A DNA stretch of 64,000 nucleotides from Pseudomonadota bacterium (GCA_040752895.1 JBFMHN010000002.1:204368-268367), one strand, 5' to 3'. Positions 41,756-60,593 are shown, counted from the stretch's first letter. Notes: generated by a model from the sequence alone, not told the origin. A program made the numbers and translations.

Positions 41756-43183
41756 ATGGCCGATATCAAGACCCTGCGACCGATTTCCGAACCGCTCGTC
41801 GTCGGCGCCGTCCGCGCATTTGACGCGACTGCGGTCATGCTCGTCGGCGCCGCCGGCTACGGCCTTTATCTCGAAGGCGAAAGCTATGCGGTTCCGGAAT
41901 ACTACGCAGGCTTCATGGTCGCGCTGCTTCTGCTGCAGCAGAATTTCTTCGGTTTGTTCCGCGTCTACGCAACCCTTTTCGATCCGTCGCGTTTTGCCCT
42001 GCTGCGTCGCATCTTTCTTGCCTGGACCACGGCGCTCGTCACCATCGTTGCCGCCGCCTTCCTGGCGAAAGTGTCCGAAGAGTTTTCGCGCGCCTGGGTC
42101 GGCATTGTGTACGGCGGGGGCCTGTTTGCCATGCTGCTCGTCCGCACAGGGCTGGCGGTGGTCATTCGGCGCTGGCATCGCGACGGTCGGCTCCGTACCG
42201 TCCTTGCGCTCGTGGGCGGGGGAGAGAATGCCCGGCGTTTCATCAAACGGTTGAAGCAGCGAAACGACGACGCCTACACGGCCATCGGCGTGTTTGACGA
42301 CCGGGCGGCGCGCACGCCCGCGGACATCGACGGTTGCCCGTATTTGGGCACGGTCGACGATCTCATCGTTTATTGTCGCACCCATCGCGTGGATCAGGTC
42401 GTTCTGACCCTTCCTTGGTCCGCCGAAAACCGCATACTCGAAACGCTCGAGCGCGTGATGGCCTTGCCGGTTCGCGTGCGCCTGGGACCCGATCTTGTCG
42501 GCTTCCATTTTGGCCGCGCCAACGTCACCCATTTGGGCGACGTGCCGGTCCTGCACCTCGCGGAGCCCGCGCTTTCGGACTGGAGCCACTTCGTCAAGTC
42601 GGTCGAAGACAAGATTCTTGCCGCCGCCGTCGTGTTTTTCATTGCGCCGCTGATGATCTGTATCGCCCTTGCCATCAAACTGGACAGCCCCGGCCCCGTG
42701 TTCTTTCGTCAGCGGCGCTACGGGTTCAACAACCGCATCTTTATCGCTTACAAATTCCGCACCATGCATGTGCATATGAGCGACGAGAGCGCGCGGGCGC
42801 TGACGGCACCCGGTGACGTGCGGGTAACGCGCGTCGGCGCGTTTCTCCGCCGCACCAGCCTTGATGAGGTGCCCCAGTTCCTGAACGTGCTGAAGGGCGA
42901 CATGTCCGTCGTCGGGCCGCGGCCCCACGCACTTGGGGCAAAGGCGGGGGCAAAGCTTTATCACGACGTCTTCGCTAAATACGCCCATCGTCACCGGGTG
43001 AAGCCGGGCATCACCGGATGGGCGCAGATCAACGGCTGGCGCGGCGCCACCGATACCGTCGAGCAGCTCGAGAAACGCGTCGAAGCCGATCTCTATTACA
43101 TCGAGAACTGGTCGATTTGGCTGGATTTGCGCATCATTCTGGCAACGCCGATTGCGATTCTCCGGGGTGAAAACGCATACTGA
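41756..43183 (+). CDS. undecaprenyl-phosphate hexose-1-phosphate transferase (WcaJ/WbaP-type priming glycosyltransferase)
   Basis: 475 aa: N-terminal TM bundle, a central Rossmann-like segment and the C-terminal bacterial sugar-transferase domain (PVFFRQRRYGFNNRIFIAYKFRTM...DEVPQFLNVLKGDMSVVGPRPH...KPGITGWAQINGWRG). Confidence 0.92.
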   Translation: MADIKTLRPISEPLVVGAVRAFDATAVMLVGAAGYGLYLEGESYAVPEYYAGFMVALLLLQQNFFGLFRVYATLFDPSRFALLRRIFLAWTTALVTIVAAAFLAKVSEEFSRAWVGIVYGGGLFAMLLVRTGLAVVIRRWHRDGRLRTVLALVGGGENARRFIKRLKQRNDDAYTAIGVFDDRAARTPADIDGCPYLGTVDDLIVYCRTHRVDQVVLTLPWSAENRILETLERVMALPVRVRLGPDLVGFHFGRANVTHLGDVPVLHLAEPALSDWSHFVKSVEDKILAAAVVFFIAPLMICIALAIKLDSPGPVFFRQRRYGFNNRIFIAYKFRTMHVHMSDESARALTAPGDVRVTRVGAFLRRTSLDEVPQFLNVLKGDMSVVGPRPHALGAKAGAKLYHDVFAKYAHRHRVKPGITGWAQINGWRGATDTVEQLEKRVEADLYYIENWSIWLDLRIILATPIAILRGENAY

Positions 43184-43245
43184 GCGGCGCGCGCGGCGAC
43201 GTCCGCCAAGGGCCTCGCCGATCAACGGCGCGGAGAGCACGAGAA

Positions 43246-44574
43246 GTGAAAGCGATCTGGATTGACAGAAAACCGGAGGCGGGCACGGTTTACACGTTCC
43301 TGAACCGGTCGTGGTCGATCGTTTCGACGCTCGTTTTCATCGCCCTCGTGATCTACGCCCTCAGCCCAGAACTTCAGGGATATTATTATACGTTTTTAAG
43401 CCTGCTCGTCCTGCTGCAGCTTGCCGACATGGGCTTCGGCAGCGTCCTGACGCAGTTTTGCAGCCACGAATGGGCGCATCTCCGCTTCGATGAAAACGGT
43501 GCCGTTGTTGGATCGCCGGAAGCCAAGGCGCGCCTTGCTTCGCTCGTCGATATCGGTTTCCGCTGGTACGGCGTTGCCGTTATGGTTTTCTTCGTCGCGT
43601 TGGGCTTGGGCGGCGACCTGTTCTTCGCGACCCAGGCGGGGTCGGAAAATATCGACTGGCGGTTGCCGTGGTGGCTGCTGGCGGGTTTCGCCGCATTCTG
43701 TCTTCTGCTTGTTCCCGTCACCAGCCTGTTGGACGCAAGCCACCAGGTGGCGCTCAGCCAGCGCAATCAGCTTGCCGCCAACGTGGTCGCTTCGTTCGCC
43801 GGTTGGGCGACGCTCGGGTTGGGCGGCGGTCTCTATGCCGTGCCGGTGGTGTTCGCCGGCCGCGCCGTCCTCGGTCATGCCCTCAACACCCTGGCCGCCC
43901 GGCCCTTGCTCCGCCTTCGCCACGGCCGCGACCGGGCGTCCGCCATCGATTGGCGGCGCGAATTCTGGCCCCAGCAATGGCGCATCTTCGCAAGCTGGAC
44001 AGCGGGCTTCCTCGTGTTCCAGAGTTTCACGCCCATCGCCTTCAAGCTTTCGGGGCCGGTGGCGGCAGGCCAGATCGGCATCATGGTCCAGGCTTTTCAC
44101 GCAGTGAACCAGCTGGCCTCGGCGCGGCTTACCGTCGACCAGCCCAAAATGGGCGCGCTGGCCGCCAAAGGAGATCTCGGCGGTCTTCGGGCGCTGGTGC
44201 GGCTGGCCATCGGGCGCAATATTCTCGTCTCGGCGATCCTCGCGGCGGCGGCCGTGGCGCTGGTCTATGGCATCCAAGCCTTCGCGCCTGCCATCGGGTG
44301 GCGCTTCGGCAGCCTTCCCGCTTTTACTTTGTTCGTCTTGGCGGCCGTGCTCTATCAAGTTTCGAATGTCGAGACCGCCGCCGTGCGCTTTCAGAAGAAG
44401 GAGCCTTTCGTGACCGCCGTCTTCGTTTCCGCAATTCTGGTCGTCCTTGGCAATCTTCTCGTCGCCGCCTACGGTGACGCCGCGTGGATGGCGGTGGTTT
44501 TTACAGCCGTGTCGCTGTTCGTGCTGGTGCCCTGGGTGCACGCCATCTATCGCCGTCACATGGTGCCCGGATGA
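43246..44574 (+). CDS. polytopic membrane protein, Wzx-like oligosaccharide flippase (MOP superfamily, tentative)
   Basis: 442-aa GTG-start ORF with about 12 hydrophobic segments. Located between the priming transferase and the modification genes. No soluble domain. Confidence 0.6.
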   Translation: MKAIWIDRKPEAGTVYTFLNRSWSIVSTLVFIALVIYALSPELQGYYYTFLSLLVLLQLADMGFGSVLTQFCSHEWAHLRFDENGAVVGSPEAKARLASLVDIGFRWYGVAVMVFFVALGLGGDLFFATQAGSENIDWRLPWWLLAGFAAFCLLLVPVTSLLDASHQVALSQRNQLAANVVASFAGWATLGLGGGLYAVPVVFAGRAVLGHALNTLAARPLLRLRHGRDRASAIDWRREFWPQQWRIFASWTAGFLVFQSFTPIAFKLSGPVAAGQIGIMVQAFHAVNQLASARLTVDQPKMGALAAKGDLGGLRALVRLAIGRNILVSAILAAAAVALVYGIQAFAPAIGWRFGSLPAFTLFVLAAVLYQVSNVETAAVRFQKKEPFVTAVFVSAILVVLGNLLVAAYGDAAWMAVVFTAVSLFVLVPWVHAIYRRHMVPG

Positions 44575-49080: not shown

Positions 49081-50019
49081 ATGAAATCAAAAATCCTGGT
49101 GACCGGCGGCGCCGGCTATATCGGCGCCGTCCTGGTCCCGAAGCTCCTCGAAGAAGGCCACAACGTCGCGGTTCTCGACAGCTTTGCGCGCGGCGAGGCC
49201 CATCTCGCCGCCTGCTGCCAGTATGACGGGTTCGAGCCGGTGCGCGGCGACGCCCGCGACGAAAGGGTCGTCAAGGGTCTTGCCGCCAAGGCCGACATCG
49301 TCATCCCGCTGGCGGCGCTGGTCGGCGCGCCGCTCTGCGCGCGCGATCCGATCGGCGCCGAAACCATCAACCGCGACGCCGTGCTCATGCTGTTGAAACA
49401 CATTGGCCGGGACCAGCGCCTCGTGTTTCCGAACAGCAACAGCGGTTACGGCATCGGCCAGGGCGACAATTTCTGCACCGAGGATAGCCCGTTGAATCCG
49501 ATCTCGCTCTATGGCCAGACCAAGGTCGAGGCGGAAAAGGCAATCCTCGATTCAGGAAAGGGGATTTCGCTGCGCCTCGCCACGGTGTTCGGCCTATCGC
49601 CGCGCATGCGCCTCGACCTTCTCGTCAACGACTTTACTTATCGCGCAGTCAACGACCGCTTCGTCGTCGTTTTCGAGGGCCATTTCAAGCGCAACTATAT
49701 CCACGTGCGCGACGTCGTTGCGGCTTTCGTCCATGCGATCGGAAATTTCGAGGCCATGCGGGGCATGGCTTTCAACGTCGGCTTGTCCGACGCCAATTTC
49801 TCGAAACTGGAACTCTGCGCCCTGATCCAGCGCTACGTGCCCGACTTCGTTTTTCTCGAAGCCCCCATCGGCGAAGACCCGGACAAGCGCAACTACATCG
49901 TCTCCAACGCGCGCATCGAAGGGACCGGATTCAAGCCCGCCTGGTCGCTCGACCGCGGGGTACGCGAACTCCTCCGCGGCTACCGCATGCTTAACAACGC
50001 GCGCTTCTCGAATGTCTGA
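49081..50019 (+). CDS. NAD-dependent epimerase/dehydratase (extended SDR)
   Basis: GxGxxG (VTGGAGYIGAVL) and catalytic YxxxK (YGQTKVEAEK). First gene of a tightly packed five-gene sugar-nucleotide operon. Confidence 0.88.
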   Translation: MKSKILVTGGAGYIGAVLVPKLLEEGHNVAVLDSFARGEAHLAACCQYDGFEPVRGDARDERVVKGLAAKADIVIPLAALVGAPLCARDPIGAETINRDAVLMLLKHIGRDQRLVFPNSNSGYGIGQGDNFCTEDSPLNPISLYGQTKVEAEKAILDSGKGISLRLATVFGLSPRMRLDLLVNDFTYRAVNDRFVVVFEGHFKRNYIHVRDVVAAFVHAIGNFEAMRGMAFNVGLSDANFSKLELCALIQRYVPDFVFLEAPIGEDPDKRNYIVSNARIEGTGFKPAWSLDRGVRELLRGYRMLNNARFSNV

Positions 50020-50818
50020 CCGGACGGGGCTTTCGTCGGGAATGCCGCCGGCGATCGTTCTGGTGGGCGGGCGCGGCGCGCGGCTTGGGCCCGCAACGGC
50101 TGATATGCCGAAACCCATGCTCTGCGTGGCGGGGAAGCCGTTCTTGCACTGGGTCACGGCTTGGCTTTTGGGGCAGGGCGTCACGGAAATCGTTTTCGCC
50201 ACCGGCCATTCCGGGGAAAAGGTCGCGGACTGGGTGGCGACCCTCGACCTGCCTGGCGGCGTGTCGGTTCTCTGCCGGCAGGAGGAAGCGCCGCTCGGCA
50301 CTGGCGGCGCACTGCTGTTTGCGCTGCAGGCGGTCCACCCTGACTATCGCCGCGTTCTCGTCCTGAACGGGGATTCTTTGCTGCTCTGCGATCTTTCCGC
50401 GCTCGTCGCGCGCTATGACGAGGGTGGGGCCGATGCGGTGCTGGCGGCGCTTGCGGTGGACGACGCCCTGCGTTACGGCGCGCTCGATATCGATCTTTCG
50501 GGGCGCATCACCGCCTTCGGCGAGAAACGGCCGGGGGGCGGCTGGATCAACGGCGGGGTTTACCTTTTTTCGCGCGCTCTCCTCGGGCGGTTTCCGGCGA
50601 ATGCCGCCATGAGCATCGAATACGATCTTATCCCGCAGGCGCTTGGCGCGGGCTCTGCCTTCTTTGCCTTCAAGGTGACGGCGCCCTTCATCGATATCGG
50701 CACGCCGGAAACCCTGGCCGCCGCCAGCGCCTTTATCGAACGGCACGGCGGTCTGATCCACAGCAACGCCGGCGGCATGTCGGCACCGAAGCCGGAAAGG
50801 AAACGGCAAACGCCATGA
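50012..50818 (+). CDS. sugar-1-phosphate nucleotidyltransferase (HddC-like heptose-1-P guanylyltransferase, tentative)
   Basis: AIVLVGGRGARLGPATADMPKPMLCVAGKPFLHW...IVFATGH. The start could instead be the ATG at 50042. Its stop overlaps the next ATG (ATGA). Confidence 0.8.
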   Translation: MSDRTGLSSGMPPAIVLVGGRGARLGPATADMPKPMLCVAGKPFLHWVTAWLLGQGVTEIVFATGHSGEKVADWVATLDLPGGVSVLCRQEEAPLGTGGALLFALQAVHPDYRRVLVLNGDSLLLCDLSALVARYDEGGADAVLAALAVDDALRYGALDIDLSGRITAFGEKRPGGGWINGGVYLFSRALLGRFPANAAMSIEYDLIPQALGAGSAFFAFKVTAPFIDIGTPETLAAASAFIERHGGLIHSNAGGMSAPKPERKRQTP

Positions 50819-51714
50819 AGGCGCTGGTGACAGGGGGGACCGGTTTTCTGGGGCGGCATCTCGTCCCCGATCTCGCGCGCCGCGGGTTCGACACCACCGT
50901 CGTCCATTCGAAAAACTGCGACCTGACGCGTCAGGAAAACCTCGCCCATATTCCCGACATCGCTTTCGACCGCATCTACCATCTGGCGGCCTGGACAAAG
51001 GCTGGCGATTTTGCCCTCCGTCACGCGGGCGAACAGTGGATCATCAACCAGCAAATCAACACCAACGCGCTTTGGTACTGGCGCGAACGCCAGCCCAGGG
51101 CGCTTTTCATCACCATGGGGACGAGCTGCGCCTACCCGCCCGAATTGCCGCTTTCCGAAGAAAACTACATGACGGGCGAGCCGGACCGGGATCTCTATAC
51201 CTACGCCATGACCAAACGCATGCTTCTTCAGGGGCTTCGCGCCTTCGACAAGCAGTTCGGCATGCGGTACCGGTATTTCATTCCCTCGACCCTGTTCGGG
51301 CCCGATTTCGACCACGCGGATTCGCACTTCATCTTCGATCTCATCAAGAAGATCGTCGCGGGCAAACGGAAGGGCGATCCGGTGGTGCTCTGGGGCGACG
51401 GGTCGCAGGTGCGCGAACTCATCTTCATCGATGACGCGATCCGCCTCATCCATATGGGGACGGACGCCATCGGCAACGACATCCTCAACCTTGGCAGCGG
51501 ACAGGCGCTCACCATCCGCGAATACGCCGAGATGATCTGCGCCATCGTCGGCTACGACCCCGCCAAGGTTCAGTACGACACCACGCGCTATACGGGGGTC
51601 GGCAAAAAAGTGTTTGACACCGCAAAGATTCGGGGCACGCTCGACTTTCAATTTACGCCGATCCGTGACGGTATCGCCAAGACTGTCGATTACTACTTGC
51701 GCTCGAGCGCCTAG
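50815..51714 (+). CDS. NAD(P)-dependent epimerase/reductase (GDP-fucose-synthase-like SDR)
   Basis: VTGGTGFLGRHL and YxxxK (YTYAMTKRMLL). About 300 aa, typical of 3,5-epimerase/4-reductases. Confidence 0.8.
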   Translation: MKALVTGGTGFLGRHLVPDLARRGFDTTVVHSKNCDLTRQENLAHIPDIAFDRIYHLAAWTKAGDFALRHAGEQWIINQQINTNALWYWRERQPRALFITMGTSCAYPPELPLSEENYMTGEPDRDLYTYAMTKRMLLQGLRAFDKQFGMRYRYFIPSTLFGPDFDHADSHFIFDLIKKIVAGKRKGDPVVLWGDGSQVRELIFIDDAIRLIHMGTDAIGNDILNLGSGQALTIREYAEMICAIVGYDPAKVQYDTTRYTGVGKKVFDTAKIRGTLDFQFTPIRDGIAKTVDYYLRSSA

Positions 51715-51737
51715 CCGTCCTTTACCGGAAACCCGCT

Positions 51738-52982
51738 ATGAATTGCCGCGTCTGCCATGGGTCGAACGTCGTTCCGGTTCTCGATCTTGGCGACCAGCCC
51801 CATTGCAATACGCTGATCCCGCCCTCGCGCGACGGCGAACCGGAACCCGTCTATCCTCTCCGCCTTTGCTTCTGCCGCGATTGCTCCACGGCGCAGATCG
51901 ACCACACGGTGCCGAAGGAAATCATGTTTTCCGATTATCCCTACGTGTCGGGGACGACCCGGACCCTTCGCGCCCATTTCGAGGACAGCGCCAACCGGCT
52001 GGTCAAGACTCTGGGGCTCGCGCCGGGCAGCCTCGTCGTCGATATCGGCAGCAACGACGGCACCTGGCTCAAATATTTCAAGGCCGCGGGCATGCGCCCG
52101 CTCGGGGTCGAGCCCGCCGGCAATCTCGTCGAACTTGCGCGGCGGGACGGCATCGACACGCTGCACCGTTTTTTCAACGCCGAGACGGCGCGCGGCATCC
52201 TGCGCGATGCCGGCGCGCCCGCGCTGGTCACCGCTGCGGGGGTGTTCTTCCACCTTGAAGAACTGCATAGCGCCACCGAGGGCGTCGCCCTTATGTGCGA
52301 GGCCGGTGCCGTGTTCTGCGTGCAGGCAATCTATCTCGGCGAGATGATCGCCAAGAACCATTTCGACAACATCTATCACGAGCACCTGACCTATTGGTCG
52401 CTGACCTCGATTTCCCGGCTTTTCGACAGGCACGGGCTTGAGACCTTCGAGGCGTCCTTAGTGCCGATCCACGGCGGCACCATGGAGCTTCTCGTCGCCA
52501 AAAAAGGCGCGCGCCCGATCGGACCGTCGGTCGCGGCCATGCGCGCCGACGAGGCGCGCCGCGGTTTCGCCTCGATCGAAACCTACGAGGCTTTCGCGCG
52601 CCGGGTCTCCGTCATCCGCGACCAGTTGCTGAATATTCTTCGCCGGTTCCGGGACGAAGGGAAAACCGTGCATGCCTTGGGCGCGCCGGCCAAGGGGTCG
52701 ACGCTGCTGAATTCGTTCGGCATTACGACCGATCTCGTCTCCCTCGCCACGGAACGCAACCCGCTCAAGTTCGGCAAACTCATGCCCGGCAGCCATATCC
52801 CGATCGCCGACGAAGACGCGACGCCGCCGCCCGACGCCTATCTCGTGCTGCCATGGAATTTTCTCGACGAATTTCTCGTCAAGAAACGTGCGTACATCCT
52901 GGGCGGCGGCGCCTTCATTGTGCCGTTGCCCGAGCCGCACGTGATCGACAAATCCAATTACGCGCAATACGCGCGCGGATGA
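51738..52982 (+). CDS. NDP-sugar C-methyltransferase family protein (Zn-ribbon + class I MT + C-terminal domain)
   Basis: N-terminal Cys4 ribbon (CRVCHGSN...CFCRDCSTAQ), then YPYVSGTTRTLRAHFE and VVDIGSNDGTWL. This is the architecture of TylCIII-type sugar C-methyltransferases. Confidence 0.75.
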   Translation: MNCRVCHGSNVVPVLDLGDQPHCNTLIPPSRDGEPEPVYPLRLCFCRDCSTAQIDHTVPKEIMFSDYPYVSGTTRTLRAHFEDSANRLVKTLGLAPGSLVVDIGSNDGTWLKYFKAAGMRPLGVEPAGNLVELARRDGIDTLHRFFNAETARGILRDAGAPALVTAAGVFFHLEELHSATEGVALMCEAGAVFCVQAIYLGEMIAKNHFDNIYHEHLTYWSLTSISRLFDRHGLETFEASLVPIHGGTMELLVAKKGARPIGPSVAAMRADEARRGFASIETYEAFARRVSVIRDQLLNILRRFRDEGKTVHALGAPAKGSTLLNSFGITTDLVSLATERNPLKFGKLMPGSHIPIADEDATPPPDAYLVLPWNFLDEFLVKKRAYILGGGAFIVPLPEPHVIDKSNYAQYARG

Positions 52983-53001
52983 CCGGGCGGTACAAGACGC
53001 C

Positions 53002-54021
53002 ATGATCTTCACCTCCAGAACCCCCCTGCGCGTCAGCCTGTTCGGCGGCGGCACCGATTATCCCGAATATTTCCGCGACAACCCGGGCGCCGCCCTCGGC
53101 TTCACCATCGACAAATATATTTATATTTCCGCCCTGCCGCTGACGGCCATGGTGGATTACCGTTTCCGTCTGGGCTATTCGCGCATCGAAACGGTCGACC
53201 ATGTCCGCGACATCCGCCACCCCGTGGTGCGCACGGTTCTGGCCGACGAAGCCGCCGTTGAACCCACCGATTACGGCGTCCAGGCCGATCTGCCTGCCAG
53301 CGCCGGCCTCGGCAGTTCGTCGGCCTTCACCGTGGGGTTTCAGAATCTTGTCTGGCACATGGCCGGGCGGTGCTGCACGAAGATGGAGCTGGCGCGCCGC
53401 GCGATCCATGTCGAGCGCGAGATGTTGAAGGAACGCGTCGGCGTTCAGGACCAGCTGCACGCATCTTTCGGCGGGCTGAATCGCTTCGATTTCAGAGGCG
53501 ACGACATCGCGGTGAGGCCCATCGATCTGGCGCCCGATTCTCTCGATGCGTTGGGCCGGTGGTTCGTCCTCGTCTATACCGGTATCAAGCGCCATGCTTC
53601 CGAAGTTCTCGACGAGCAGATCAAGAATACGTCCGAGAAAAAGCGCGACGGCGAGCTTGCCGCCATGCGCGACATCGTCGATGCGGCGGAGGCGGTCATC
53701 CGCGGCGCCCGCGATCCCCATGACATCGCGCCCGCCCTGGCCCCGCTCTTGGCGGAATCCTGGCGCCTCAAGCGGTTGCTTTCGTCCAAGGTCTCGGGCT
53801 CCGAAATCGACGATCTCTACCACGCCTGCCTTGCGAAGGGCGGGCTGGCGGGCAAGCTTTGCGGCGCGGGCGGGGGCGGATTCCTTCTGATAATCGTGCC
53901 GCCGGAACGCAAGCCCGCCTTTATCGAGGCGATGGGCCGCCGGCGCTGCGTCGATATCGCCATCGACCGGGCGGGTTCGACAATCCTGCAGGCGGTCGCC
54001 CAAGGCGTTGGGAGTGAGTAG
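53002..54021 (+). CDS. GHMP-family sugar kinase (HddA-like D-glycero-D-manno-heptose 7-phosphate kinase, tentative)
   Basis: RTPLRVSLFGGGTDYPEYF...IDKYIYI...PASAGLGSSSAFTVG...GKLCGAGGGGFLL. Confidence 0.8.
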   Translation: MIFTSRTPLRVSLFGGGTDYPEYFRDNPGAALGFTIDKYIYISALPLTAMVDYRFRLGYSRIETVDHVRDIRHPVVRTVLADEAAVEPTDYGVQADLPASAGLGSSSAFTVGFQNLVWHMAGRCCTKMELARRAIHVEREMLKERVGVQDQLHASFGGLNRFDFRGDDIAVRPIDLAPDSLDALGRWFVLVYTGIKRHASEVLDEQIKNTSEKKRDGELAAMRDIVDAAEAVIRGARDPHDIAPALAPLLAESWRLKRLLSSKVSGSEIDDLYHACLAKGGLAGKLCGAGGGGFLLIIVPPERKPAFIEAMGRRRCVDIAIDRAGSTILQAVAQGVGSE

Positions 54022-54033
54022 CGTGGCCTGCTT

Positions 54034-54067
54034 CGCACGCAGAGAGATCGTGCGTCGCGTTTCGCGA
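54034..54067 (+). terminator. two tandem short hairpins followed by a T-rich tract after the kinase gene (weak terminator candidate)
   Basis: cgcacg-N9-cgtgcg (54034-54054) and tcgcg-ttt-cgcga (54055-54067), followed by atttgtgt...cgtttttt. It marks the switch into the AT-rich FkbM gene. Confidence 0.3.
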
Positions 54068-54113
54068 ATTTGTGTACAGCTACGTTTTTTGAGAATTCCT
54101 CTGGGCAGGATCG

Positions 54114-55072: not shown

Positions 55073-55729
55073 TTATCCTCGGTACGCGCGCCGCCGAGCG
55101 CGCACCACGCAGCAGAACCCGGTCAAATCCCACCAGTCATAGAGAACAAGACGCCGGTTGCGTAGCGAGTGAATGACAATCAGCGCCGGCGACAGCAGGA
55201 TTCGCAGCCACATGCGCCGGTATCCCGCATGGTCGATGTCGAACCCTTGGGCGCGGGCGATCCCCGCAATTTCTTCCGGCGCGAAGGTGCGCACATGGGT
55301 CGGATCGTCGAAGAAATTCAACCCGAAACCGCGAAGCGGAAAGTACCGCGACTTTTCGCTCGGCCATTCCAGATAGAGATACCCGCCCGGCTTCACCTTG
55401 TCGCAAAGCCTCGCCACGAGGTGTCTTCCATCTTCGAGATGTTCCTGCGTGTGCGATGAGACGACATAGTCATAGGCCCTGTCGGGCGAGCCGGCGAGGT
55501 CGGACCGATTGAGATCGGTCCGGTGATAGACATCGAAGCCCGACGCGCGCGCATCGCCGATGTCGGCGATGTTGTAGCCCTCGAACCGGCAATCGGCGAA
55601 CAGCGCCTTGGCGATTCGCGCATCGTCCTTGCCCGCGCCGGCGTCAAGAATGCGGACGGCTTTCCCGAAAAAATCGTCCGGCAGCCACGCATAGCGCGGG
55701 TTGAGCCGGTGGCGGAGCCAAGCGGTCAT
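55073..55729 (-). CDS. class I SAM-dependent methyltransferase (paralogue of 44571..45263)
   Basis: ATG 55729 (MTAWLRHRLNPRYAW) overlaps the upstream stop (ATGA). Motifs ILDAGAGKD, YVVSSHTQEHL, KPGGYLYLE, FFDDPTH, ILLSPALI. Confidence 0.82.
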   Translation of the reverse strand: MTAWLRHRLNPRYAWLPDDFFGKAVRILDAGAGKDDARIAKALFADCRFEGYNIADIGDARASGFDVYHRTDLNRSDLAGSPDRAYDYVVSSHTQEHLEDGRHLVARLCDKVKPGGYLYLEWPSEKSRYFPLRGFGLNFFDDPTHVRTFAPEEIAGIARAQGFDIDHAGYRRMWLRILLSPALIVIHSLRNRRLVLYDWWDLTGFCCVVRARRRAYRG

Positions 55730-56940
55730 GGCGCTTCGTTCCGCAAACGCCGAATGGCGTCCCAAAATGCCCGGCCGCGGCTCGCCCAATCGAATTGCCC
55801 GGCACAGGCGGCGAACGCCCGGTTCTGCAGCGCGTTGAGCCGGGCCATGTCGTCGAGCGCCGCGAGGCAAACGGTCACGAGACCGGCCATGGTTTTTGCG
55901 GTCAGGATGCTTTCGCCGGGCCGCAGCGGCAGCCCCGCGACGCTGCCTTCCAGTGCCGCGACCGGCAGCCGGTTGAAGATATACGACAGCACCTTGTGTT
56001 TGAACCCGCCACCGGTCTGTTCCGGCACGATGCCAAGGCGCGCTTCGACGAGATAAGGCGGCAGCGTGTCGTAACGCCCGGTAACGCGAACCGTCGGGTA
56101 ACGCGTGCGCAACGTTTCGCCATAGCCATCGGGCATGTTGCCCAGAATTTCGATCTCCGCACCCGCTTCGTGAAAGCGCGCCGCCCCCGCTTCCAGAAAC
56201 GCTTCCAGGTTCATCCGTTTTGCGAACCAGCCGAAACTGCCGACCACGATCGCCCGTTTCGGCGCCTCGCCGCCGATGGTGCGATGGCCCAGCACCGGCC
56301 CATCGTAACCCGGGGTCAAGGGCAGATAGGTTTTCTCCGGATGGGTCCGGCGGAACAGCGCTTCGTCTTCGCGCGTATTCACGGTCACGAGGGCGCTGGC
56401 ATCGACCATTTTCCGTTCCAGTTCTGCGGCTTTCTTCGCCTCAAGCTTGAGGGCGAATTTCTTCAAGACCGATCCTTTGAAATGCCTGGCCACCTGCCCG
56501 CGCACGCTGGTTTCGTGGTTGTGCGAAAGGTAGATGAAATCCGGCGGCCTGTTCGTCCGTTCCGCGGTCCGGCAGAGGGGCGCCAGCGGCCACCCCGATC
56601 CGATGTGATCGAAAACCACCGCGTCAACGCCCGCCCCGACCGCGGCGCGCGCCGCCGCCAGATAGGCCCGCGACCGGAACCGGTGCGCGATGCTGGGAAG
56701 ATATCCGAAAATGCTTTGCCAGGCGGGTCGGTCGGGCAGCGGAAAAATACGCCAGTCGACGCCGTTCACTGTGGCGCTGTCCCGGGCATCGCCGCCATTC
56801 TCGAAACAAAGTCCCGTGACATGGGCCCCGGCACCGGCCAGCCCCTCCGCCAGTTTCGAGGAATAGATCGCGTCACCGCCGTAAAACGGCGGGTAGGGCA
56901 GGAACCGCGTCAGCCAGAGAACCTTCATGTCGAACGCCAT
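55726..56940 (-). CDS. glycosyltransferase (GT-B, family 4-like)
   Basis: 404 aa with an N-terminal GT4-type domain (VLWLTRFLPYPPFYGGD) and a C-terminal nucleotide-sugar-binding region (GIVPEQTGGGFKHKVLSYIFNRLPV). Confidence 0.8.
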   Translation of the reverse strand: MAFDMKVLWLTRFLPYPPFYGGDAIYSSKLAEGLAGAGAHVTGLCFENGGDARDSATVNGVDWRIFPLPDRPAWQSIFGYLPSIAHRFRSRAYLAAARAAVGAGVDAVVFDHIGSGWPLAPLCRTAERTNRPPDFIYLSHNHETSVRGQVARHFKGSVLKKFALKLEAKKAAELERKMVDASALVTVNTREDEALFRRTHPEKTYLPLTPGYDGPVLGHRTIGGEAPKRAIVVGSFGWFAKRMNLEAFLEAGAARFHEAGAEIEILGNMPDGYGETLRTRYPTVRVTGRYDTLPPYLVEARLGIVPEQTGGGFKHKVLSYIFNRLPVAALEGSVAGLPLRPGESILTAKTMAGLVTVCLAALDDMARLNALQNRAFAACAGQFDWASRGRAFWDAIRRLRNEAP

Positions 56941-58247
56941 CCCCCGCCCATGCGGTCGGAACCCGCGGCAACATCGGCTTCCTCGCGCGAGCTGTTCTCG
57001 GCCTCGTTTTCCGCGGCGTCGTGAACGCGCGCCTCAGCCCGTCGCGCCGCCAGAACGCCGGTCACCGCCGCGACCAGAAGAATGGGCGGCACCAGGGACG
57101 TGCCGAACAGCCCGAGCAGCAGCACGCCCATCAATATGGGCAGCCAGTATCCCGGCACCCAGAGAACGCGTAAAATCCACCCCGCGACCAGCAGACCGAA
57201 CGCGCCCAGTTCCGCGACGAGGTTCAGCAGCAAAACGTCGGACTTATAGAACGCCGTCTTATAGAGATCGAGGTAACGATCGAACTCGGCGCCATAGACA
57301 CCGAAATCGCGGAAATTTCCATAGCCCGTGCCGAGCGGGAAGGTGGCGCGGATGACATCCAAAGCTACGCCCGCCGAGGCCAATCGCATGTTGGTCGAGG
57401 GATCCATGCCTTGCCAGACGACGATAAGCCTGTCCCACTGGAGATAGGTCAGGCCGGCAAGCGCAAGCAGTACCCCGAAAACACCGACAGCCCACACCTC
57501 GATGGAACGCCGCTCGAACAGATGGGCCGCGCAAAAGACCAAGGCCAGCAGATATCCGGTGCCGGTATTGGTGAAGATCGCGGCGACGAGAAACGCCAGC
57601 AGCGCCATGGACCGCTGGCTCGGCAGGAGATAGTGGATGGCAAGATAGGTGCAGCCGATGGCGAACGCCGCCCAAGCCGGCTCCCGGCTGAGCCCCGCAG
57701 CGCGGAACCCGTAATACTCGCCGATCTCGGTCGGTCTCACCAGGTCCAGCGGATTGAGGTTCACGGAAAAAACAAACCAGGCCAGCGCTGCGACGATGAT
57801 GCACGCGCATTGCACGTAATGGATGACCAGAACCGATCCCATCAGCCGCCCGACGAGACGGTCGGTCGTTTCAAACAACTGCCGCGTCAGAAACAGGAAC
57901 ACGAGAAAAATCGCGAGCTGGCCATATCCCAGGATATAGGCGCGTCCGATAAACGCCTCCTGCACGAAGAGCCAAACCACCAGCAATGTGGAAAACGTGA
58001 CAATACCCCGAAACGCCGATCCGGGATCGCGGTTGGGGAGCAAGGCGAAGGCGAAGAGCAGCAAGAACCCGAAAAACGGCAGTATCAAAAGATGCGGGCT
58101 CGGAAGATTGACGGCGGCTTTCAGAAAATAACCCAACCCGTCGCCGAGAGCGATGAACAGGATCAAAAGCGTGAACGACACCGAGAAGATCGGTTCAGGC
58201 AACCCGTCGGTGCCGTTATGGGCGTCGTCGCTTGGAACGTTCGTCAT
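56925..58247 (-). CDS. Wzy-like O-antigen / EPS polymerase family membrane protein
   Basis: Starts MTNVPSDDAHNG (ATG 58247). More than 10 TMs with a large loop (...MDPSTNMRLASAGVALDVIRATFPLGTGYGNF...). No soluble domain. Flanked by a GT and a methyltransferase. Confidence 0.7.
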   Translation of the reverse strand: MTNVPSDDAHNGTDGLPEPIFSVSFTLLILFIALGDGLGYFLKAAVNLPSPHLLILPFFGFLLLFAFALLPNRDPGSAFRGIVTFSTLLVVWLFVQEAFIGRAYILGYGQLAIFLVFLFLTRQLFETTDRLVGRLMGSVLVIHYVQCACIIVAALAWFVFSVNLNPLDLVRPTEIGEYYGFRAAGLSREPAWAAFAIGCTYLAIHYLLPSQRSMALLAFLVAAIFTNTGTGYLLALVFCAAHLFERRSIEVWAVGVFGVLLALAGLTYLQWDRLIVVWQGMDPSTNMRLASAGVALDVIRATFPLGTGYGNFRDFGVYGAEFDRYLDLYKTAFYKSDVLLLNLVAELGAFGLLVAGWILRVLWVPGYWLPILMGVLLLGLFGTSLVPPILLVAAVTGVLAARRAEARVHDAAENEAENSSREEADVAAGSDRMGGGWRST

Positions 58248-58290
58248 GACTCGCTCCGCGTGAACCGGAAAGAAAGGATGCGCCGCAACC

Positions 58291-59169
58291 TCATGCCGGA
58301 ACGGCCGTCCAATGCCGCCGGAGCATAGCGATAAATGTCGGCGCCGCGAGGGGGGAAGCCGGATCGTCCGCGTCATTCCCGGGCACCGCGAAATAGGCGT
58401 TGGTCTCGGCGTTCAGCGCATGGGCGACGGTGAAGCCTGCTTCGCTTGCCGCAAAGATCGCATACCCCGCCGCGGCGAAGTAAGACCAGATCGGTCGCCA
58501 GTCGCGTCTGCTTCGCGTCAGATGACGCTGTTCGCATTCGAAGTAAATGAGCGGCCGCCATTTCTCGATCGTCGCGGCCGCACCGGAAAGAACGTCCATC
58601 TCGCCGCCCTCGACGTCGATCTTGAAGAACAGGGGCCGTCGGAGCGACACGTCGCCGCGCGCTATCGCCGCGTCCAGAGTGCACACCGTCGTTTCCTGGA
58701 CAACGGCGTTCCGGTTGCTCTCGCTCCCCGCCTCTTTCCGGTTCGAGACCCAGCCCAACGCCGTCACCGGATTGTTTCGGCCGTCGGTCGGTACGTTGAG
58801 ATAGGCCGTCTCCGTCCGCGCCCCGAGTGCGCAATTGAACAGCCGGACCACAGGTCGGCGTTCGAGATTGGCCTCCAAAAGCCGGAACGCCGCCGGGTTA
58901 GGCTCGAAGGCGTAAATCCGCGCGTCTTTTTTCGCGCGGGTCGCGAAAAACCAGCTGTAGCGGCCGATATTGGCGCCGGCGTCCACGACGCTCGAAGCCG
59001 TTCGGACAACGAAATCGAGGGCTTCTATCACCGGCTTCGGCTCCGGAACGCCGAAAAGTCCCGCCGCTCTCAGGGTGCGGTGATACAGCACGTGCAGCCC
59101 GACCTCCGCCCCCGGACCGAAGGCCGTCGCGACGGCTCCTCGGATGCGTGCGCGAAGAAATCCAAGCAT
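58291..59169 (-). CDS. FkbM-family methyltransferase
   Basis: Starts MLGFLRARIRG (ATG 59169). Motifs VVDAGANIGRYSWFFA...RIYAFEPNP...FFKIDVEGGEMDVL. Confidence 0.85.
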   Translation of the reverse strand: MLGFLRARIRGAVATAFGPGAEVGLHVLYHRTLRAAGLFGVPEPKPVIEALDFVVRTASSVVDAGANIGRYSWFFATRAKKDARIYAFEPNPAAFRLLEANLERRPVVRLFNCALGARTETAYLNVPTDGRNNPVTALGWVSNRKEAGSESNRNAVVQETTVCTLDAAIARGDVSLRRPLFFKIDVEGGEMDVLSGAAATIEKWRPLIYFECEQRHLTRSRRDWRPIWSYFAAAGYAIFAASEAGFTVAHALNAETNAYFAVPGNDADDPASPLAAPTFIAMLRRHWTAVPA

Positions 59170-59441
59170 GGTTTCGGCCCGTTTCCATTCGAATTGCCAC
59201 CTTAGACCGGCGCGTTCCTGTGTATACCCGCCTTTTCTTTCCTGTATATACTTGTCTTTAAGGCGAAGCCGGTAGACTGAAGGCGGGCCGGGGCGCGCAG
59301 AAAAATCCGTTTTACATTCAATCCCTTGCCCAATGGGCGGACCGGCATGGCATGCCGGCGGCGGGAGATGACCGGGTTTCCCTGCAAGCCATTCGAGCCG
59401 GAATGGGCGCCTAAGGCAAAACAAGGACGACAGAGGTTGAA

Positions 59442-60593
59442 ATGGCCGACCACTTTCGGATTGGTCGCGGACAAATCGCTATTGTAGACACCGTTACAGG
59501 CCGACGGCACGGCGGACATCAGGCCGACTACTTGAACGTGCTCGAGGATGCGCTCGGGGATAGCCTCGTAGAAACCTATGCCCCATTCCGAAATATAGAT
59601 GCGAAGGATGAAATTCCGGCGAAACTGGTTCGTCTTTACGCGATTATTCGCGGGATAAGAAAACTGATCGGCCACCGGGAAAAACGGATCTTAATTTATC
59701 ACACGCCCGAATTTCTCGATTTTGTGGCGTTTTATGCCGCTGCAGGCTTTAGCCGTATCCACTCGAAGGGGAAGGTCGCCGGCTTGTTTGTTTTTCGTCG
59801 CGATGCGGCGGGAATCATCGGCCGGTCCGGGTGGAAGGCGGCCGTTCTCGTGTGGATCGCCCGCCGCCTTGCGAAAAGCGGCCTCCTGTTCCCGGTCTCC
59901 GATTCGTCAGCGGCCCTCAAGATGTGGGAAAGAACGCTTGGGATATCGGGGCAATTGGTGGCGATTCCGGTCCGCCCGCGACCAGCAGAAAGCGCTGCAA
60001 AAAAACCGGAAGACCCGATAACCTTTGGGCTTATCGGGCAATTTCGTCCCGAAAAAGGAACGCCACATTACGGCGGCATCGTCGGCGCGGCGCTTTCGAC
60101 TTCGCCGGACGCAAAAATCATCCTGCAGCTACCCGACAACGCCCCGGATGCAACACCGCCCGAAGCCGAAATCCTGAGGGCTTCGTTGGCCGGTCAGGGC
60201 AGGGCGCGGCTAGTGGCGGGATACTTGCCGGACAACGAGTACACGCGGCTTCTGGCGGAAATCGATGTCCTGGTCCTGCCGTACGATGTGCGGAGTTATG
60301 GACTGGGGACCAGCGGGGTGATGTTCGAAATTCTCTCGATGAACGGGGTTGTGCTGACGACCCGATTCGAATGGGCCGTAAGCGAATTTGCGGACCATCC
60401 GAATGTCTTCTGGATGGAAACGCTTGAAGACGTCGAGATCAAACGCGGGCTCCGCGCGGCAGCCGAGAAAGTCCGCGAATTGCGCGCGCGGGATTCCGGC
60501 GATTCGCGCCCGGGGACGATCGCGTTCCAGGCATCTTGGCTTGAAGCGATTCAACGCGCGGCGGACCGTAAAAATACGCGGGCTCTAACTTGA
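59442..60593 (+). CDS. putative GT-B-fold glycosyltransferase (weak family signal)
   Basis: 383 aa. The C-terminal half resembles the GT1/GT4 donor-binding domain (ITFGLIGQFRPEKG...VLVLPY...GTSGVMFEILSMNGVVLTT). The N-terminal half is not recognised. Confidence 0.5.
   Translation: MADHFRIGRGQIAIVDTVTGRRHGGHQADYLNVLEDALGDSLVETYAPFRNIDAKDEIPAKLVRLYAIIRGIRKLIGHREKRILIYHTPEFLDFVAFYAAAGFSRIHSKGKVAGLFVFRRDAAGIIGRSGWKAAVLVWIARRLAKSGLLFPVSDSSAALKMWERTLGISGQLVAIPVRPRPAESAAKKPEDPITFGLIGQFRPEKGTPHYGGIVGAALSTSPDAKIILQLPDNAPDATPPEAEILRASLAGQGRARLVAGYLPDNEYTRLLAEIDVLVLPYDVRSYGLGTSGVMFEILSMNGVVLTTRFEWAVSEFADHPNVFWMETLEDVEIKRGLRAAAEKVRELRARDSGDSRPGTIAFQASWLEAIQRAADRKNTRALT

What the first reader, a model, noticed from the sequence alone, without database searches (positions are those of the whole stretch)
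49081..54021. Tightly coupled five-gene NDP-heptose-like cassette that includes a sugar C-methyltransferase
The gene order is extended SDR, HddC-like nucleotidyltransferase, Fcl-like epimerase/reductase, Zn-ribbon C-methyltransferase, then HddA-like GHMP kinase. Junctions are overlapping or very short (8-nt overlap, ATGA, 23 nt, 19 nt). HddA and HddC are the signature enzymes of the GDP-D-glycero-alpha-D-manno-heptose route used for capsules and S-layer glycans. TylCIII-type C-methyltransferases act on NDP-4-keto sugars to make branched-chain sugars. Combining the two suggests a C-methylated (branched) and possibly deoxygenated heptose, or a related GDP-sugar. I am not aware of such a sugar being described. 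The isomerase (GmhA) and phosphatase (GmhB) of the canonical route are absent from the window.
Basis: partly seen in the sequence, partly recalled or inferred. Interest (0 to 1): 0.65.

Follow-up and report, generated by a model that had tools for sequence, protein, structure and literature searches.

The report
Predicted C-methyl-branched heptose sugar operon
Five tightly packed genes in a surface-polysaccharide locus most likely activate a seven-carbon sugar as GDP-heptose, oxidise it at C4, add a methyl branch to a ring carbon and reduce it again, giving a branched heptose that I could not find described anywhere.

Summary
Five intact, co-directional ORFs sit at 49081-54021 with the stated junctions (8-nt overlap, ATGA, 23 nt, 19 nt).

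- The first "extended SDR" is 55% identical, without gaps, to PDB 6vo6. I take 6vo6 to be C. jejuni Cj1427, the non-dehydrating GDP-heptose C4-dehydrogenase. This supplies the 4-keto group that the methyltransferase needs.
- The methyltransferase is a full TylC3/TcaB9-type enzyme (E 5e-91 to a solved 3-C-methyltransferase). Its Zn-Cys4 site and active-site residues are conserved.
- The kinase and nucleotidyltransferase match HddA/WcbL and HddC structures best, but score far below the curated equivalog cut-offs.
- gmhA, gmhB and the ADP-heptose genes lie elsewhere in the genome.
- In six metagenomic loci, gmhA sits inside the orthologous cassette.

No dehydratase is present, so "deoxygenated" is not supported.

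The methyltransferase looks like an exchangeable module. The closest syntenic relative carries other SDR-like genes in its place.

Against the heptose reading, one complete-looking genome (G193) has the cassette but no gmhA.

I found no C-methyl heptose in the searchable literature. The nearest known sugar is 3-C-methyl-D-mannose of H. pylori.

Verdict: a new variant of a known kind, confidence about 0.7, interest moderate to high.

The parts
49081..50019 (+). SDR1: Cj1427-type NDP-heptose C4-dehydrogenase (non-dehydrating), 312 aa
   Evidence: PDB 6vo6/6vo8, E 8.5e-115, aligned 1-311 to 1-311 without gaps, 172/311 identical. Cj1427's function is taken from PMC10680097, PMC7949155 and PMC9978623.
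50012..50818 (+). HddC-like sugar-1-phosphate (guanylyl)transferase, 268 aa, single domain
   Evidence: Pfam NTP_transferase 94.6 bits. Best PDB matches are Yersinia HddC 5xhw/6jq8, E 1e-33. NCBIfam: HddC 110 bits against a cut-off of 300, and man1P_GTase_Rv 147 against 440.
50815..51714 (+). SDR2: Fcl-like SDR, inferred NDP-4-keto-(C-methyl)heptose 4-ketoreductase, 299 aa
   Evidence: GDP-L-fucose synthase structures, E 9e-29. NCBIfam Fcl 131 bits against a cut-off of 500. It keeps S104/C105 and Y129xxxK133 but lacks the HD dipeptide that carries the epimerase His. Orthologues at 47-72% accompany the methyltransferase in L003, L005, L030, L055 and L060.
51738..52982 (+). TylC3/TcaB9-type SAM-dependent NDP-4-keto-sugar C-methyltransferase, 414 aa
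   Evidence: Pfam Methyltransf_13, _23 and _14 all above their cut-offs. PDB 4rv9 E 5e-91; 5t64 and TcaB9 E 1e-72 to 3e-74. Zn Cys C3/C6/C46/C49 and Y67, H172, Y213, E215, H216 align with TcaB9 residues.
53002..54021 (+). HddA/WcbL-like GHMP anomeric sugar-phosphate kinase, 339 aa, of a distinct subfamily
   Evidence: PDB 3k85, 4n3o and 4usk, E 4e-32 to 1e-29. WcbL residues R13, D22, SSS and Q162-D163 correspond to R10, D19, S105-107 and Q149-D150. NCBIfam HddA 126 bits against a cut-off of 600. Orthologues lie next to gmhA in six loci.
54034..54090 (+). Two short hairpins and a T-run after the kinase stop: a possible operon terminator
   Evidence: Read from the sequence. The scan lists the hairpin at 54055-54067, but terminator-like sites are not enriched in the region (19 found, 14.1 +/- 3.8 expected). 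Weak evidence.
59442..60593 (+). orf383: candidate dedicated glycosyltransferase (associated gene, outside the cassette)
   Evidence: Only a faint Glyco_trans_1_4 match (E 0.025). Homologues at 34-41% lie beside the cassette in L005, L039, L050 and L055.
55726..59424 (-). GT4 glycosyltransferase (55726-56940), polytopic Wzy-like protein (56925-58376) and FkbM methyltransferase (58291-59424): conserved partners of the cassette
   Evidence: Pfam. Homologues occur together with the kinase and SDR1 in L050, L055 and L069.
41756..44574 (+). Bac_transf priming transferase (41756-43183) and a conserved 442-aa protein (43246-44574) that directly precede SDR1 in relatives
   Evidence: Pfam. L003 and L069 have BacT and orf442 just upstream of SDR1.
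60585..61730 (-). GT9 (heptosyltransferase-family) glycosyltransferase in the same locus
   Evidence: Pfam Glyco_transf_9 121 bits. A 36% homologue lies at the edge of the syntenic L069. The donor sugar is unknown.

Best explanation
The five genes form one translationally coupled operon that makes a GDP-activated, C-methyl-branched heptose for the exopolysaccharide repeat unit encoded around it.

Inferred route:
1. [quoted passage not shown]
2. The cassette's HddA-like kinase phosphorylates O1, giving the 1,7-bisphosphate.
3. The housekeeping GmhB-like phosphatase (C3:20225) removes the 7-phosphate.
4. [quoted passage not shown] It probably re-oxidises tightly bound NADH with 2-oxoglutarate.
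6. The TylC3/TcaB9-type methyltransferase deprotonates a carbon next to the ketone and methylates it from SAM. C3 is most likely, by homology to solved 3-C-methyltransferases. C5 is not excluded.
7. SDR2 reduces C4 with NAD(P)H, probably without the 3,5-epimerisation of true Fcl, because the epimerase His is missing.

The product would be a GDP-3-C-methyl-heptose of unknown configuration that keeps its 6-OH. Neighbouring transferases would then install it (orf383, GT4 or GT9 are candidates), and the FkbM enzymes may O-methylate it.

Shown here: gene anatomy, family relations, conserved catalytic residues, conserved synteny, and gmhA/gmhB linkage in relatives. Inferred: every substrate and product, the nucleotide (GDP), the regiochemistry and the stereochemistry.
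For: - SDR1 matches PDB 6vo6/6vo8 at E 8.5e-115, gap-free, 55.3% identical. [quoted passage not shown]
- The methyltransferase matches 4rv9 at E 5e-91, with all three Pfam domains and the TcaB9 Zn and active-site residues conserved.
- The kinase is nearest to HddA/WcbL structures and keeps WcbL's key residues. The transferase is nearest to Yersinia HddC.
- The own genome has gmhA (186 bits) directly upstream of hldE (372 bits, above cut-off), hldD (370 bits) and a GmhB-like gene (164 bits to NF006506).
- The whole cassette is conserved in order in L003.
- A gmhA 65-68% identical to the own gmhA sits inside orthologous cassettes in L044, L046, L047, L050, L055 and L067. In L047, L055 and L067 the order is gmhA, methyltransferase, kinase.
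- GmhB-like phosphatases lie beside the cassette in L039, L055 and L006.
- The Chloroflexi locus L006 joins NTase, kinase, two GmhA-like genes, a transaldolase-family gene and GmhB to the methyltransferase and SDR1.
- All eight loci of 12 kb or more with an orthologous kinase also carry SDR1, and five of the eight carry the methyltransferase.
Against: - G193 (100% complete by markers, 260 contigs) has the cassette and a GmhB-like gene but no GmhA-like hit (E <= 1e-10) and no HldE. Either its gmhA is unassembled (the contig starts in an IS66 fragment) or that organism feeds the kinase another sugar phosphate.
- The kinase, transferase and SDR2 score far below the NCBIfam equivalog cut-offs: 126/600, 110/300 and 131/500.
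- Genomes G002, G003 and G004 hold a second, more canonical HddA (224-290 bits) next to gmhA, besides the methyltransferase-linked kinase (120-160 bits). So this kinase is a separate subfamily whose substrate has not been shown.
- All solved relatives of the methyltransferase act on dTDP-sugars, not GDP-sugars.
- That 6vo6 is Cj1427 rests on my own knowledge and on the deposited molecule name. The structure paper is not held.
- There is no biochemical or glycan data for this organism.
Confidence: 0.7

Rival explanations
1. The substrate is a hexose and the product is GDP-3-C-methyl-mannose or an epimer, the sugar known from H. pylori D1/D3/D6 O-antigen. The kinase and a phosphatase would convert mannose-6-P (or free mannose) to mannose-1-P, the transferase would make GDP-mannose, and SDR1 would oxidise its C4 without dehydration. 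Methylation and reduction would then follow as in the main explanation.
For: G193 carries the cassette but has no gmhA and no hldE. The transferase's best NCBIfam hit is a mannose-1-P guanylyltransferase model (147 bits). WcbL binds mannose in its sugar pocket (PMC4691232). 3-C-methyl-D-mannose is a real bacterial sugar (PMC12961483 and PMC9912281), and I know of no described biosynthesis for it.
Against: gmhA is embedded in six orthologous cassettes, directly beside the kinase and/or the methyltransferase. GmhB-type phosphatases accompany the cassette. A kinase-plus-phosphatase route is the hallmark of heptose activation and is unnecessary for mannose, which uses a mutase (established pathway knowledge). 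SDR1's only characterised close relative acts on GDP-heptose.
Confidence: 0.12
2. The operon holds two unrelated pathways. Kinase, transferase and SDR1 make an unbranched GDP-heptose epimer, as in C. jejuni. The methyltransferase and SDR2 act on a different NDP-4-keto-6-deoxyhexose made elsewhere in the genome, giving an evalose- or virenose-like 6-deoxy-3-C-methyl-hexose.
For: All characterised relatives of the methyltransferase use NDP-4-keto-6-deoxy sugars. The methyltransferase with SDR2 behaves as a separable module, absent from the syntenic L069 and from same-genus G117. Methyltransferase-SDR2 pairs occur at 41-49% identity in L030 and L060.
Against: The cassette and window contain no 4,6-dehydratase, and SDR1 is the only 4-keto generator in the operon. 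The five genes are translationally coupled. Close methyltransferase orthologues (56% identity or more) always lie beside the kinase, SDR1 or gmhA in the 11 loci found. Without SDR2 the heptose branch would have no C4 reductase to finish the sugar.
Confidence: 0.06
3. The pathway is as in the main explanation, but the kinase's natural substrate is another higher-carbon sugar phosphate, not D-glycero-D-manno-heptose-7-P. The branched product would then belong to a different sugar series.
For: The kinase is a distinct subfamily that coexists with a more canonical HddA in G002, G003 and G004. L006 pairs a related kinase with a divergent GmhA-like protein (81 bits) and a transaldolase/FSA-family enzyme. 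G193 lacks gmhA.
Against: The gmhA genes embedded in the cassettes are ordinary: 65-68% identical to the own gmhA, which sits beside hldE. SDR1 is 55% identical to an enzyme specific for the manno-heptose nucleotide.
Confidence: 0.06

Closest known systems
Campylobacter jejuni capsular GDP-heptose modification pathway (GmhA, HddA/Cj1425, GmhB, HddC/Cj1423, Cj1427 C4-dehydrogenase, Cj1430 epimerase, Cj1428 reductase)
   Same: The logic is the same: activate heptose as the GDP-alpha-sugar through a GHMP kinase and a small nucleotidyltransferase, oxidise C4 without dehydration using a Cj1427-type SDR (55% identical here), tailor next to the ketone, then reduce C4 with an Fcl-like SDR.
   Different: The tailoring step here is a SAM-dependent C-methyltransferase, not a cupin C3/C5 epimerase or a PLP C3-dehydratase. 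No C-methyl products are listed among the C. jejuni heptoses ('methyl' occurs 0 times in PMC10680097). The kinase and transferase are only about 30% relatives. SDR2 is not a Cj1428 orthologue (7m13 E 6e-9, N-terminal half only). gmhA and gmhB are borrowed from the LPS ADP-heptose route.
TylC3 / TcaB9 / MtmC / KijD1 NDP-4-keto-sugar 3-C-methyltransferases of antibiotic deoxysugar pathways
   Same: Same three-domain architecture, Zn-Cys4 ribbon and active-site Tyr/His/Tyr-x-Glu-His residues. E 5e-91 to 1e-72.
   Different: Those enzymes act on dTDP-4-keto-2,6-dideoxy or 3-amino sugars in secondary metabolism. Here the inferred substrate is a GDP-4-keto-heptose that keeps its 2-, 3-, 6- and 7-hydroxyls, and the setting is a polysaccharide locus.
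3-C-methyl-D-mannose of Helicobacter pylori D1/D3/D6 O-antigen, and the proposed GDP-virenose route of Coxiella burnetii
   Same: Both are GDP-series 3-C-methyl-branched sugars in Gram-negative surface glycans. Man3CMe also keeps its 6-OH, so it would need a non-dehydrating C4 oxidation like the one proposed here.
   Different: Those are hexoses or 6-deoxyhexoses. Here the linkage to gmhA, gmhB and HddA-like genes points to a heptose. I found no described enzymes for Man3CMe.
GDP-6-deoxy-D-manno-heptose pathways (Yersinia DmhA/DmhB, Burkholderia WcbK/WcbJ with WcbL/WcbM/WcbN)
   Same: A GDP-heptose activation module (WcbL and HddC are the nearest solved relatives of the kinase and transferase) followed by SDR tailoring.
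   Different: Those begin with a 4,6-dehydratase and give 6-deoxy-heptose. This cassette has no dehydratase and has a C-methyltransferase.

Membership tests
Cj1427-type GDP-heptose C4-dehydrogenase | Full-length, close sequence similarity to Cj1427 (PDB 6vo6/6vo8) | tested here: met
   E 8.5e-115, residues 1-311 aligned to 1-311 without gaps, 55.3% identity. The next best PDB hit is only E 4e-21.
Cj1427-type GDP-heptose C4-dehydrogenase | [quoted passage not shown] | not testable with these tools
   This is a biochemical property described in PMC10680097. It needs an enzyme assay.
[quoted passage not shown] | Score above the NCBIfam equivalog cut-off (NF049969, 600 bits) | tested here: not met
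   126 bits and 121.6 bits in the genome search. It is a related but distinct subfamily.
[quoted passage not shown] | GHMP fold with WcbL catalytic and ligand residues R13, D22, S118-120, Q162, D163 | tested here: met
   R10, D19, S105-107, Q149 and D150 align with them.
[quoted passage not shown] | Genomic linkage to gmhA and gmhB | tested here: met
   Orthologues (55-63% identical) lie beside gmhA in L044, L046, L047, L050, L055 and L067, and near GmhB-like genes in L039 and L055. Exception: G193 has no gmhA.
HddC (heptose-1-phosphate guanylyltransferase) | Score above the NCBIfam equivalog cut-off (NF049965, 300 bits); short single-domain architecture | tested here: inconclusive
   110 bits, below the cut-off. 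However, it is single-domain at 268 aa, and its best solved relatives are Yersinia HddC 5xhw/6jq8, E 1e-33, ahead of mannose-1-P guanylyltransferases at E 2e-25.
GmhA/GmhB supply of heptose phosphate | gmhA and gmhB present in the genome | tested here: met
   A gmhA-like gene at C2:456584-457030 (186 bits, cut-off 209) lies directly upstream of hldE (372 bits, above cut-off). A GmhB-like gene at C3:20225-20698 scores 164 bits to NF006506 (cut-off 178). Both are just under the curated cut-offs.
TylC3/TcaB9-type NDP-4-keto-sugar C-methyltransferase | Methyltransf_13 Zn ribbon, SAM-binding Rossmann domain and Methyltransf_14 C-terminal domain, all above the Pfam gathering scores | tested here: met
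   73.7/31.3, 46.6/27 and 158.8/23.5 bits.
TylC3/TcaB9-type NDP-4-keto-sugar C-methyltransferase | Four Zn-binding Cys and active-site Tyr, His, Tyr-x-Glu-His | tested here: met
   C3, C6, C46, C49 and Y67, H172, Y213, E215, H216 align with TcaB9 chain residues C15, C18, C56, C59, Y78, H183, Y224, E226, H227. The role of these residues is from my own knowledge of the TcaB9 papers.
TylC3/TcaB9-type NDP-4-keto-sugar C-methyltransferase | Regiochemistry (C3 or C5) and nucleotide specificity | not testable with these tools
   The nearest solved enzymes are dTDP-sugar 3-C-methyltransferases. GDP and C3 are inferences.
GDP-L-fucose synthase (Fcl/GMER, 3,5-epimerase/4-reductase) | Score above the equivalog cut-off (NF047922, 500 bits), plus the catalytic Cys and His pair for epimerisation | tested here: not met
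   131 bits. Ser/Cys and YxxxK are present, but the His-Asp dipeptide is deleted relative to human GFS. It probably works as a 4-ketoreductase and is not a member of Fcl.
GDP-6-deoxy-heptose pathway (DmhA/WcbK type) | A GDP-heptose 4,6-dehydratase in the cassette | tested here: not met
   Neither SDR is dehydratase-like: the GDP_Man_Dehyd matches are weak (59 and 49 bits) and SDR1 is Cj1427-like. No other SDR was found in the neighbouring ORFs scanned.

The most novel reading that the evidence does not exclude
The cassette makes a monosaccharide type not yet described: a C-methyl-branched heptose (GDP-3-C-methyl-D-glycero-heptose). It is also one allele of a widespread plug-in system. In that system a conserved core (gmhA, subfamily kinase, HddC-like transferase, Cj1427-like oxidase) presents a GDP-4-keto-heptose to interchangeable tailoring modules, which would diversify surface heptoses across Alphaproteobacteria, Actinomycetota and Chloroflexi. 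The modules seen are: a C-methyltransferase with its reductase here; other SDR pairs in the nearest relative L069; and a DegT aminotransferase in Hyphomonas adhaerens.
Probability: 0.55. Interest if true: 0.68.

Novelty: new variant of a known kind. Interest (0 to 1): 0.58.

Why it matters
Heptose tailoring has been worked out almost entirely in Campylobacter, Yersinia and Burkholderia. There the 4-keto intermediate is epimerised, dehydrated or reduced. C-methyl branching is known only for hexoses and deoxyhexoses, mostly in antibiotic sugars.

A GDP-heptose C-methyltransferase would add a new reaction to nucleotide-sugar biochemistry and a new monosaccharide to glycan databases. It would also be a useful enzyme for chemo-enzymatic synthesis.

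The module is compact: three enzymes acting on a substrate that can already be made enzymatically. The prediction is therefore directly testable.

The context data also show that Cj1427-type oxidases, now annotated only as generic 'NAD-dependent epimerase/dehydratase', form a very large family (more than 8000 clusters). They are tied to a particular kinase subfamily, which could improve annotation.

Tried and rejected
- I tried to read the two Cj1427 papers (PMC7509852, PMC7500870) for substrate-contact residues and the PDB identity. Neither is held. A full-text search for '6VO6' found nothing relevant. So the identification of 6vo6 as Cj1427 rests on the deposited molecule name and my own knowledge.
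- Four literature searches for a C-methyl or branched heptose, or a GDP-heptose C-methyltransferase, found nothing relevant.
- NCBIfam equivalog models do not certify the kinase, transferase or SDR2. I therefore relied on context.
- The phyletic test (cassette carriers should have gmhA) passed for G000-G004. It failed for G193, and G093 gave only a weak 93-bit hit. I kept this as evidence against.
- I considered 6-deoxygenation and rejected it, because no dehydratase is present.
- I considered the GT9 protein as proof of heptose and rejected it as such. It could use ADP-heptose, and it recurs only in L069.
- I did not build a kinase phylogeny or a structure model. Neither would settle substrate identity.
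- One family scan failed on wrong coordinates and was repeated.

Full report
OBSERVATION

All are on the + strand. All have the high third-position GC (0.78-0.81) of real genes in this ~63% GC genome.

The junctions read from the sequence are ATGTCTGA (8-nt overlap), ATGA (4-nt overlap), a 23-nt gap and a 19-nt gap. Two short hairpins and a T-run follow the last stop codon. This is weak evidence, because terminator-like sites are not enriched in the region.

SETTING

The cassette lies inside a Wzx/Wzy-type exopolysaccharide locus:
- a Wzz/BY-kinase (36256-38505, -)
- a beta-barrel porin (39152-40450, -)
- a Wzy_C protein (34083-35573)
- a Bac_transf priming transferase (41756-43183)
- two GT4 enzymes
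- a GT9 enzyme (60585-61730, -)
- two FkbM methyltransferases
- further methyltransferase-like genes

The window is G000:C2:204368-268367 of a 2.29-Mb, 28-contig genome that is 99.9% complete.

WHAT EACH PROTEIN IS

SDR1. It matches PDB 6vo6/6vo8 at E 8.5e-115 over residues 1-311 without a single gap. Identity is 172/311, or 55.3%. The next best solved structure scores only E 4e-21.

The deposited name ('Putative sugar-nucleotide epimerase/dehydratease') is the C. jejuni NCTC 11168 annotation string for Cj1427. From my own knowledge, 6VO6 and 6VO8 are the Cj1427 structures from the Holden and Raushel laboratories. I could not confirm this from a held paper.

[quoted passage not shown] It does not dehydrate, and it uses alpha-ketoglutarate to recycle tightly bound NADH (PMC10680097; PMC7949155; PMC9978623).

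The methyltransferase.
- It has all three Pfam domains of the sugar C-methyltransferases above their cut-offs.
- It matches the D-mycarose 3-C-methyltransferase structure 4rv9 at E 5e-91, and 5t64 and TcaB9 at about E 1e-72 to 3e-74.
- The four Zn cysteines (C3, C6, C46, C49) and Y67, H172, Y213, E215 and H216 align with TcaB9 residues. I recall those TcaB9 residues as the Zn ligands and active-site residues.

The kinase.
- It is nearest to the HddA/WcbL group of GHMP kinases: 3k85, 4n3o and 4usk, E 4e-32 to 1e-29.
- It keeps the residues whose mutation abolishes WcbL activity. R13, D22, S118-120, Q162 and D163 correspond to R10, D19, S105-107, Q149 and D150.

The nucleotidyltransferase. It is a short single-domain enzyme nearest to Yersinia HddC (E 1e-33).

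SDR2.
- It is Fcl-like (E 9e-29 to human GDP-fucose synthase).
- It keeps Ser/Cys and YxxxK.
- It lacks the His-Asp dipeptide that carries the epimerase His. I therefore read it as a plain 4-ketoreductase. This is an inference.

The kinase, transferase and SDR2 all score far below the NCBIfam equivalog cut-offs: 126/600, 110/300 and 131/500. They are relatives, not certified members.

HEPTOSE OR HEXOSE?

This was the main open question. The evidence falls into four groups.

1. Own genome. It has the following:
- a gmhA-like gene (186 bits) directly upstream of a bifunctional hldE (372 bits, above cut-off)
- hldD (370 bits, above cut-off)
- a GmhB-like phosphatase (164 bits to NF006506)

So heptose-7-P is made for the LPS core, and the cassette can draw on it. 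The cassette's kinase is the only HddA-like kinase in the genome.

2. Related loci from genomes.
- A Rhodospirillaceae MAG (L003) has the identical order BacT, orf442, SDR1, NTase, SDR2, methyltransferase, kinase at 53-73% identity.
- Two Actinomycetota MAGs (L004, L005) and two class relatives (G193 = L039, G093 = L040) also keep the methyltransferase with the kinase; L005, L039 and L040 also carry SDR1 (L004 is only 3.2 kb).
- A Chloroflexi locus (L006) joins the methyltransferase and SDR1 to an NTase, an HddA-like kinase, two GmhA-like genes, a transaldolase/FSA-family gene and a GmhB gene.

3. Metagenome scan with the kinase. It gave 26 loci. Mapping all my proteins onto them shows:
- A gmhA 65-68% identical to the genome's own gmhA lies inside the orthologous cassette in L044, L046, L047, L050, L055 and L067.
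- In L047, L055 and L067 the order is gmhA, methyltransferase, kinase.
- L055 also carries a GmhB-like HAD gene, orf383, GT4, the Wzy-like gene, FkbM and orf442. Most of the window's locus is therefore conserved there.
- Of 25 loci with a kinase at 54% identity or more, 14 show SDR1, 11 the methyltransferase and 6 gmhA. Many of these loci are only 1-5 kb long.
- Of the 8 loci that are 12 kb or longer, all have SDR1 and 5 have the methyltransferase.

4. Evidence against.
- G193, 100% complete by markers, has the cassette and a GmhB-like phosphatase beside it (120 bits). It has no GmhA-like hit at E <= 1e-10 and no HldE. Its contig begins in an IS66 fragment and the assembly has 260 contigs, so gmhA may simply be unassembled. 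I cannot show that.
- G002, G003 and G004 hold a second, more canonical HddA (224-290 bits) next to gmhA. The methyltransferase-linked kinase is therefore a separate subfamily.

On balance, the kinase + GmhB + NTase logic and the repeated embedding of gmhA make heptose much the more likely substrate. A mannose-based route to the known sugar 3-C-methyl-D-mannose remains the main rival.

MODULARITY

The SDR1 family is very large: more than 8000 clusters at E <= 1e-60, all with generic names.

- In Hyphomonas adhaerens MHS-3 (L068), an SDR1 orthologue (68%) and a related kinase (42%) sit with a DegT aminotransferase and an HddC-GmhB fusion. There is no methyltransferase.
- The closest relative found (L069: SDR1 77%, kinase 64%) is syntenic with the window across BacT, orf442, SDR1, NTase, kinase, FkbM, a methyltransferase, GT4, the Wzy-like gene, FkbM and GT9. 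In place of SDR2 and the C-methyltransferase it has a different Fcl-like SDR (28%) and a 258-aa SDR-like protein.
- Across the class, C-methyltransferases of this family are common (107 of 401 genomes at E <= 1e-40). Only two of those genomes have orthologues at 57% identity or more.
- Within the genus, none of the three genomes sampled has the methyltransferase, and only one of the five sampled has an SDR1 orthologue (G117, 67%).

So the methyltransferase, often together with SDR2-type reductases (L003, L005, L030, L055, L060), behaves as an exchangeable tailoring module on a conserved GDP-4-keto-heptose platform.

MECHANISM PROPOSED

Sedoheptulose-7-P is converted as follows:
1. GmhA makes heptose-7-P.
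2. The cassette kinase makes heptose-1,7-bisphosphate.
3. GmhB makes heptose-1-P.
4. The NTase makes GDP-heptose.
5. SDR1 makes GDP-4-keto-heptose.
6. The methyltransferase, with SAM, makes GDP-3-C-methyl-4-keto-heptose. C5 is not excluded, since both carbons flank the ketone.
7. SDR2, with NAD(P)H, makes GDP-3-C-methyl-heptose.

The cassette contains no dehydratase, aminotransferase or cupin epimerase. The product should therefore keep its 6-OH, and its configuration is set only by the methyltransferase and the reductase.

Every substrate and product is an inference.

The transfer step is open. orf383 co-occurs with the cassette in L005, L039, L050 and L055. GT4a co-occurs in L044, L046, L050, L055 and L069. 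The GT9 recurs only in L069.

NOVELTY

Full-text searches found no C-methyl or branched heptose and no GDP-heptose C-methyltransferase. In the review of C. jejuni heptose pathways, 'methyl' occurs 0 times. A 2023 review-C-methyl-branched monosaccharides 'quite uncommon' and cites only Man3CMe.

An earlier AI note from this scan (e1-5043591) reached the same prediction for a different genome. That is a lead, not independent evidence.

I classify the finding as a new variant of a known kind: known enzyme families and known pathway logic, in a new combination with a new predicted product.

LIMITS
- There is no biochemical, transcript or glycan evidence.
- The identification of 6vo6 as Cj1427 and the roles of the TcaB9 residues rest partly on my own knowledge.

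Noticed in passing
window 45349-45417 and 49090-49158: The first ~70 nt of SDR1 are duplicated 3741 nt upstream (two segments of 25 and 37 nt, 96-97% identical). The copies bracket a lower-GC 3.7-kb insert. L003 has SDR1 directly after orf442 with no such insert, so the insert looks like a later cassette integration at the 5' end of the operon.
   Followed up: partly
G000:C4:44246-45505 (L071:8247-9506): A second TylC3-type C-methyltransferase (39% identical) lies in a separate glycan locus with a UDP-GlcNAc 2-epimerase, a GT1, a GFO/IDH/MocA oxidoreductase, a DegT aminotransferase and a dehydratase-like SDR. The genome probably makes a second, different branched sugar.
   Followed up: partly
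L068 (Hyphomonas adhaerens MHS-3, ARYH01000001.1:1230575-1251507): A cultured Hyphomonas carries a Cj1427-like SDR (68%), a related GHMP kinase (42%), a DegT aminotransferase and an HddC-GmhB fusion in an EPS locus with no C-methyltransferase. This suggests a 4-amino-4-deoxy-heptose.
   Followed up: no
L069 12674-13450 and 11708-12655: In the nearest syntenic relative, the slot held here by SDR2 and the C-methyltransferase holds a different Fcl-like SDR and a 258-aa SDR-like protein with only a weak Epimerase match. This looks like an alternative tailoring module of unknown chemistry.
   Followed up: no
window 54114-54992: The AT-rich FkbM gene just after the operon has a 59% orthologue at the same position in L069 (14679-15524). 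It is therefore a conserved member of the locus in this lineage rather than a unique single-gene acquisition.
   Followed up: partly
L006 971-5231 and 11189-12235: The Chloroflexi locus has two GmhA-like genes (81 and 193 bits), two HddA-like kinases (162 and 224 bits), a transaldolase/FSA-family gene and one GmhB in a single cluster. This may mean two parallel heptose (or higher-sugar) activation routes.
   Followed up: no
G193 (L039 = C85:1-13372): This genome has the cassette and a GmhB-like phosphatase, but no gmhA and no hldE were detected. The contig starts with an IS66 fragment. This is unexplained: either an assembly gap or a different substrate.
   Followed up: partly
window 59442-60593: orf383 has no significant Pfam match (a faint GT1 match at E 0.025), yet homologues at 34-41% accompany the cassette in four unrelated loci. 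It is a candidate for a divergent glycosyltransferase specific for the modified heptose.
   Followed up: partly
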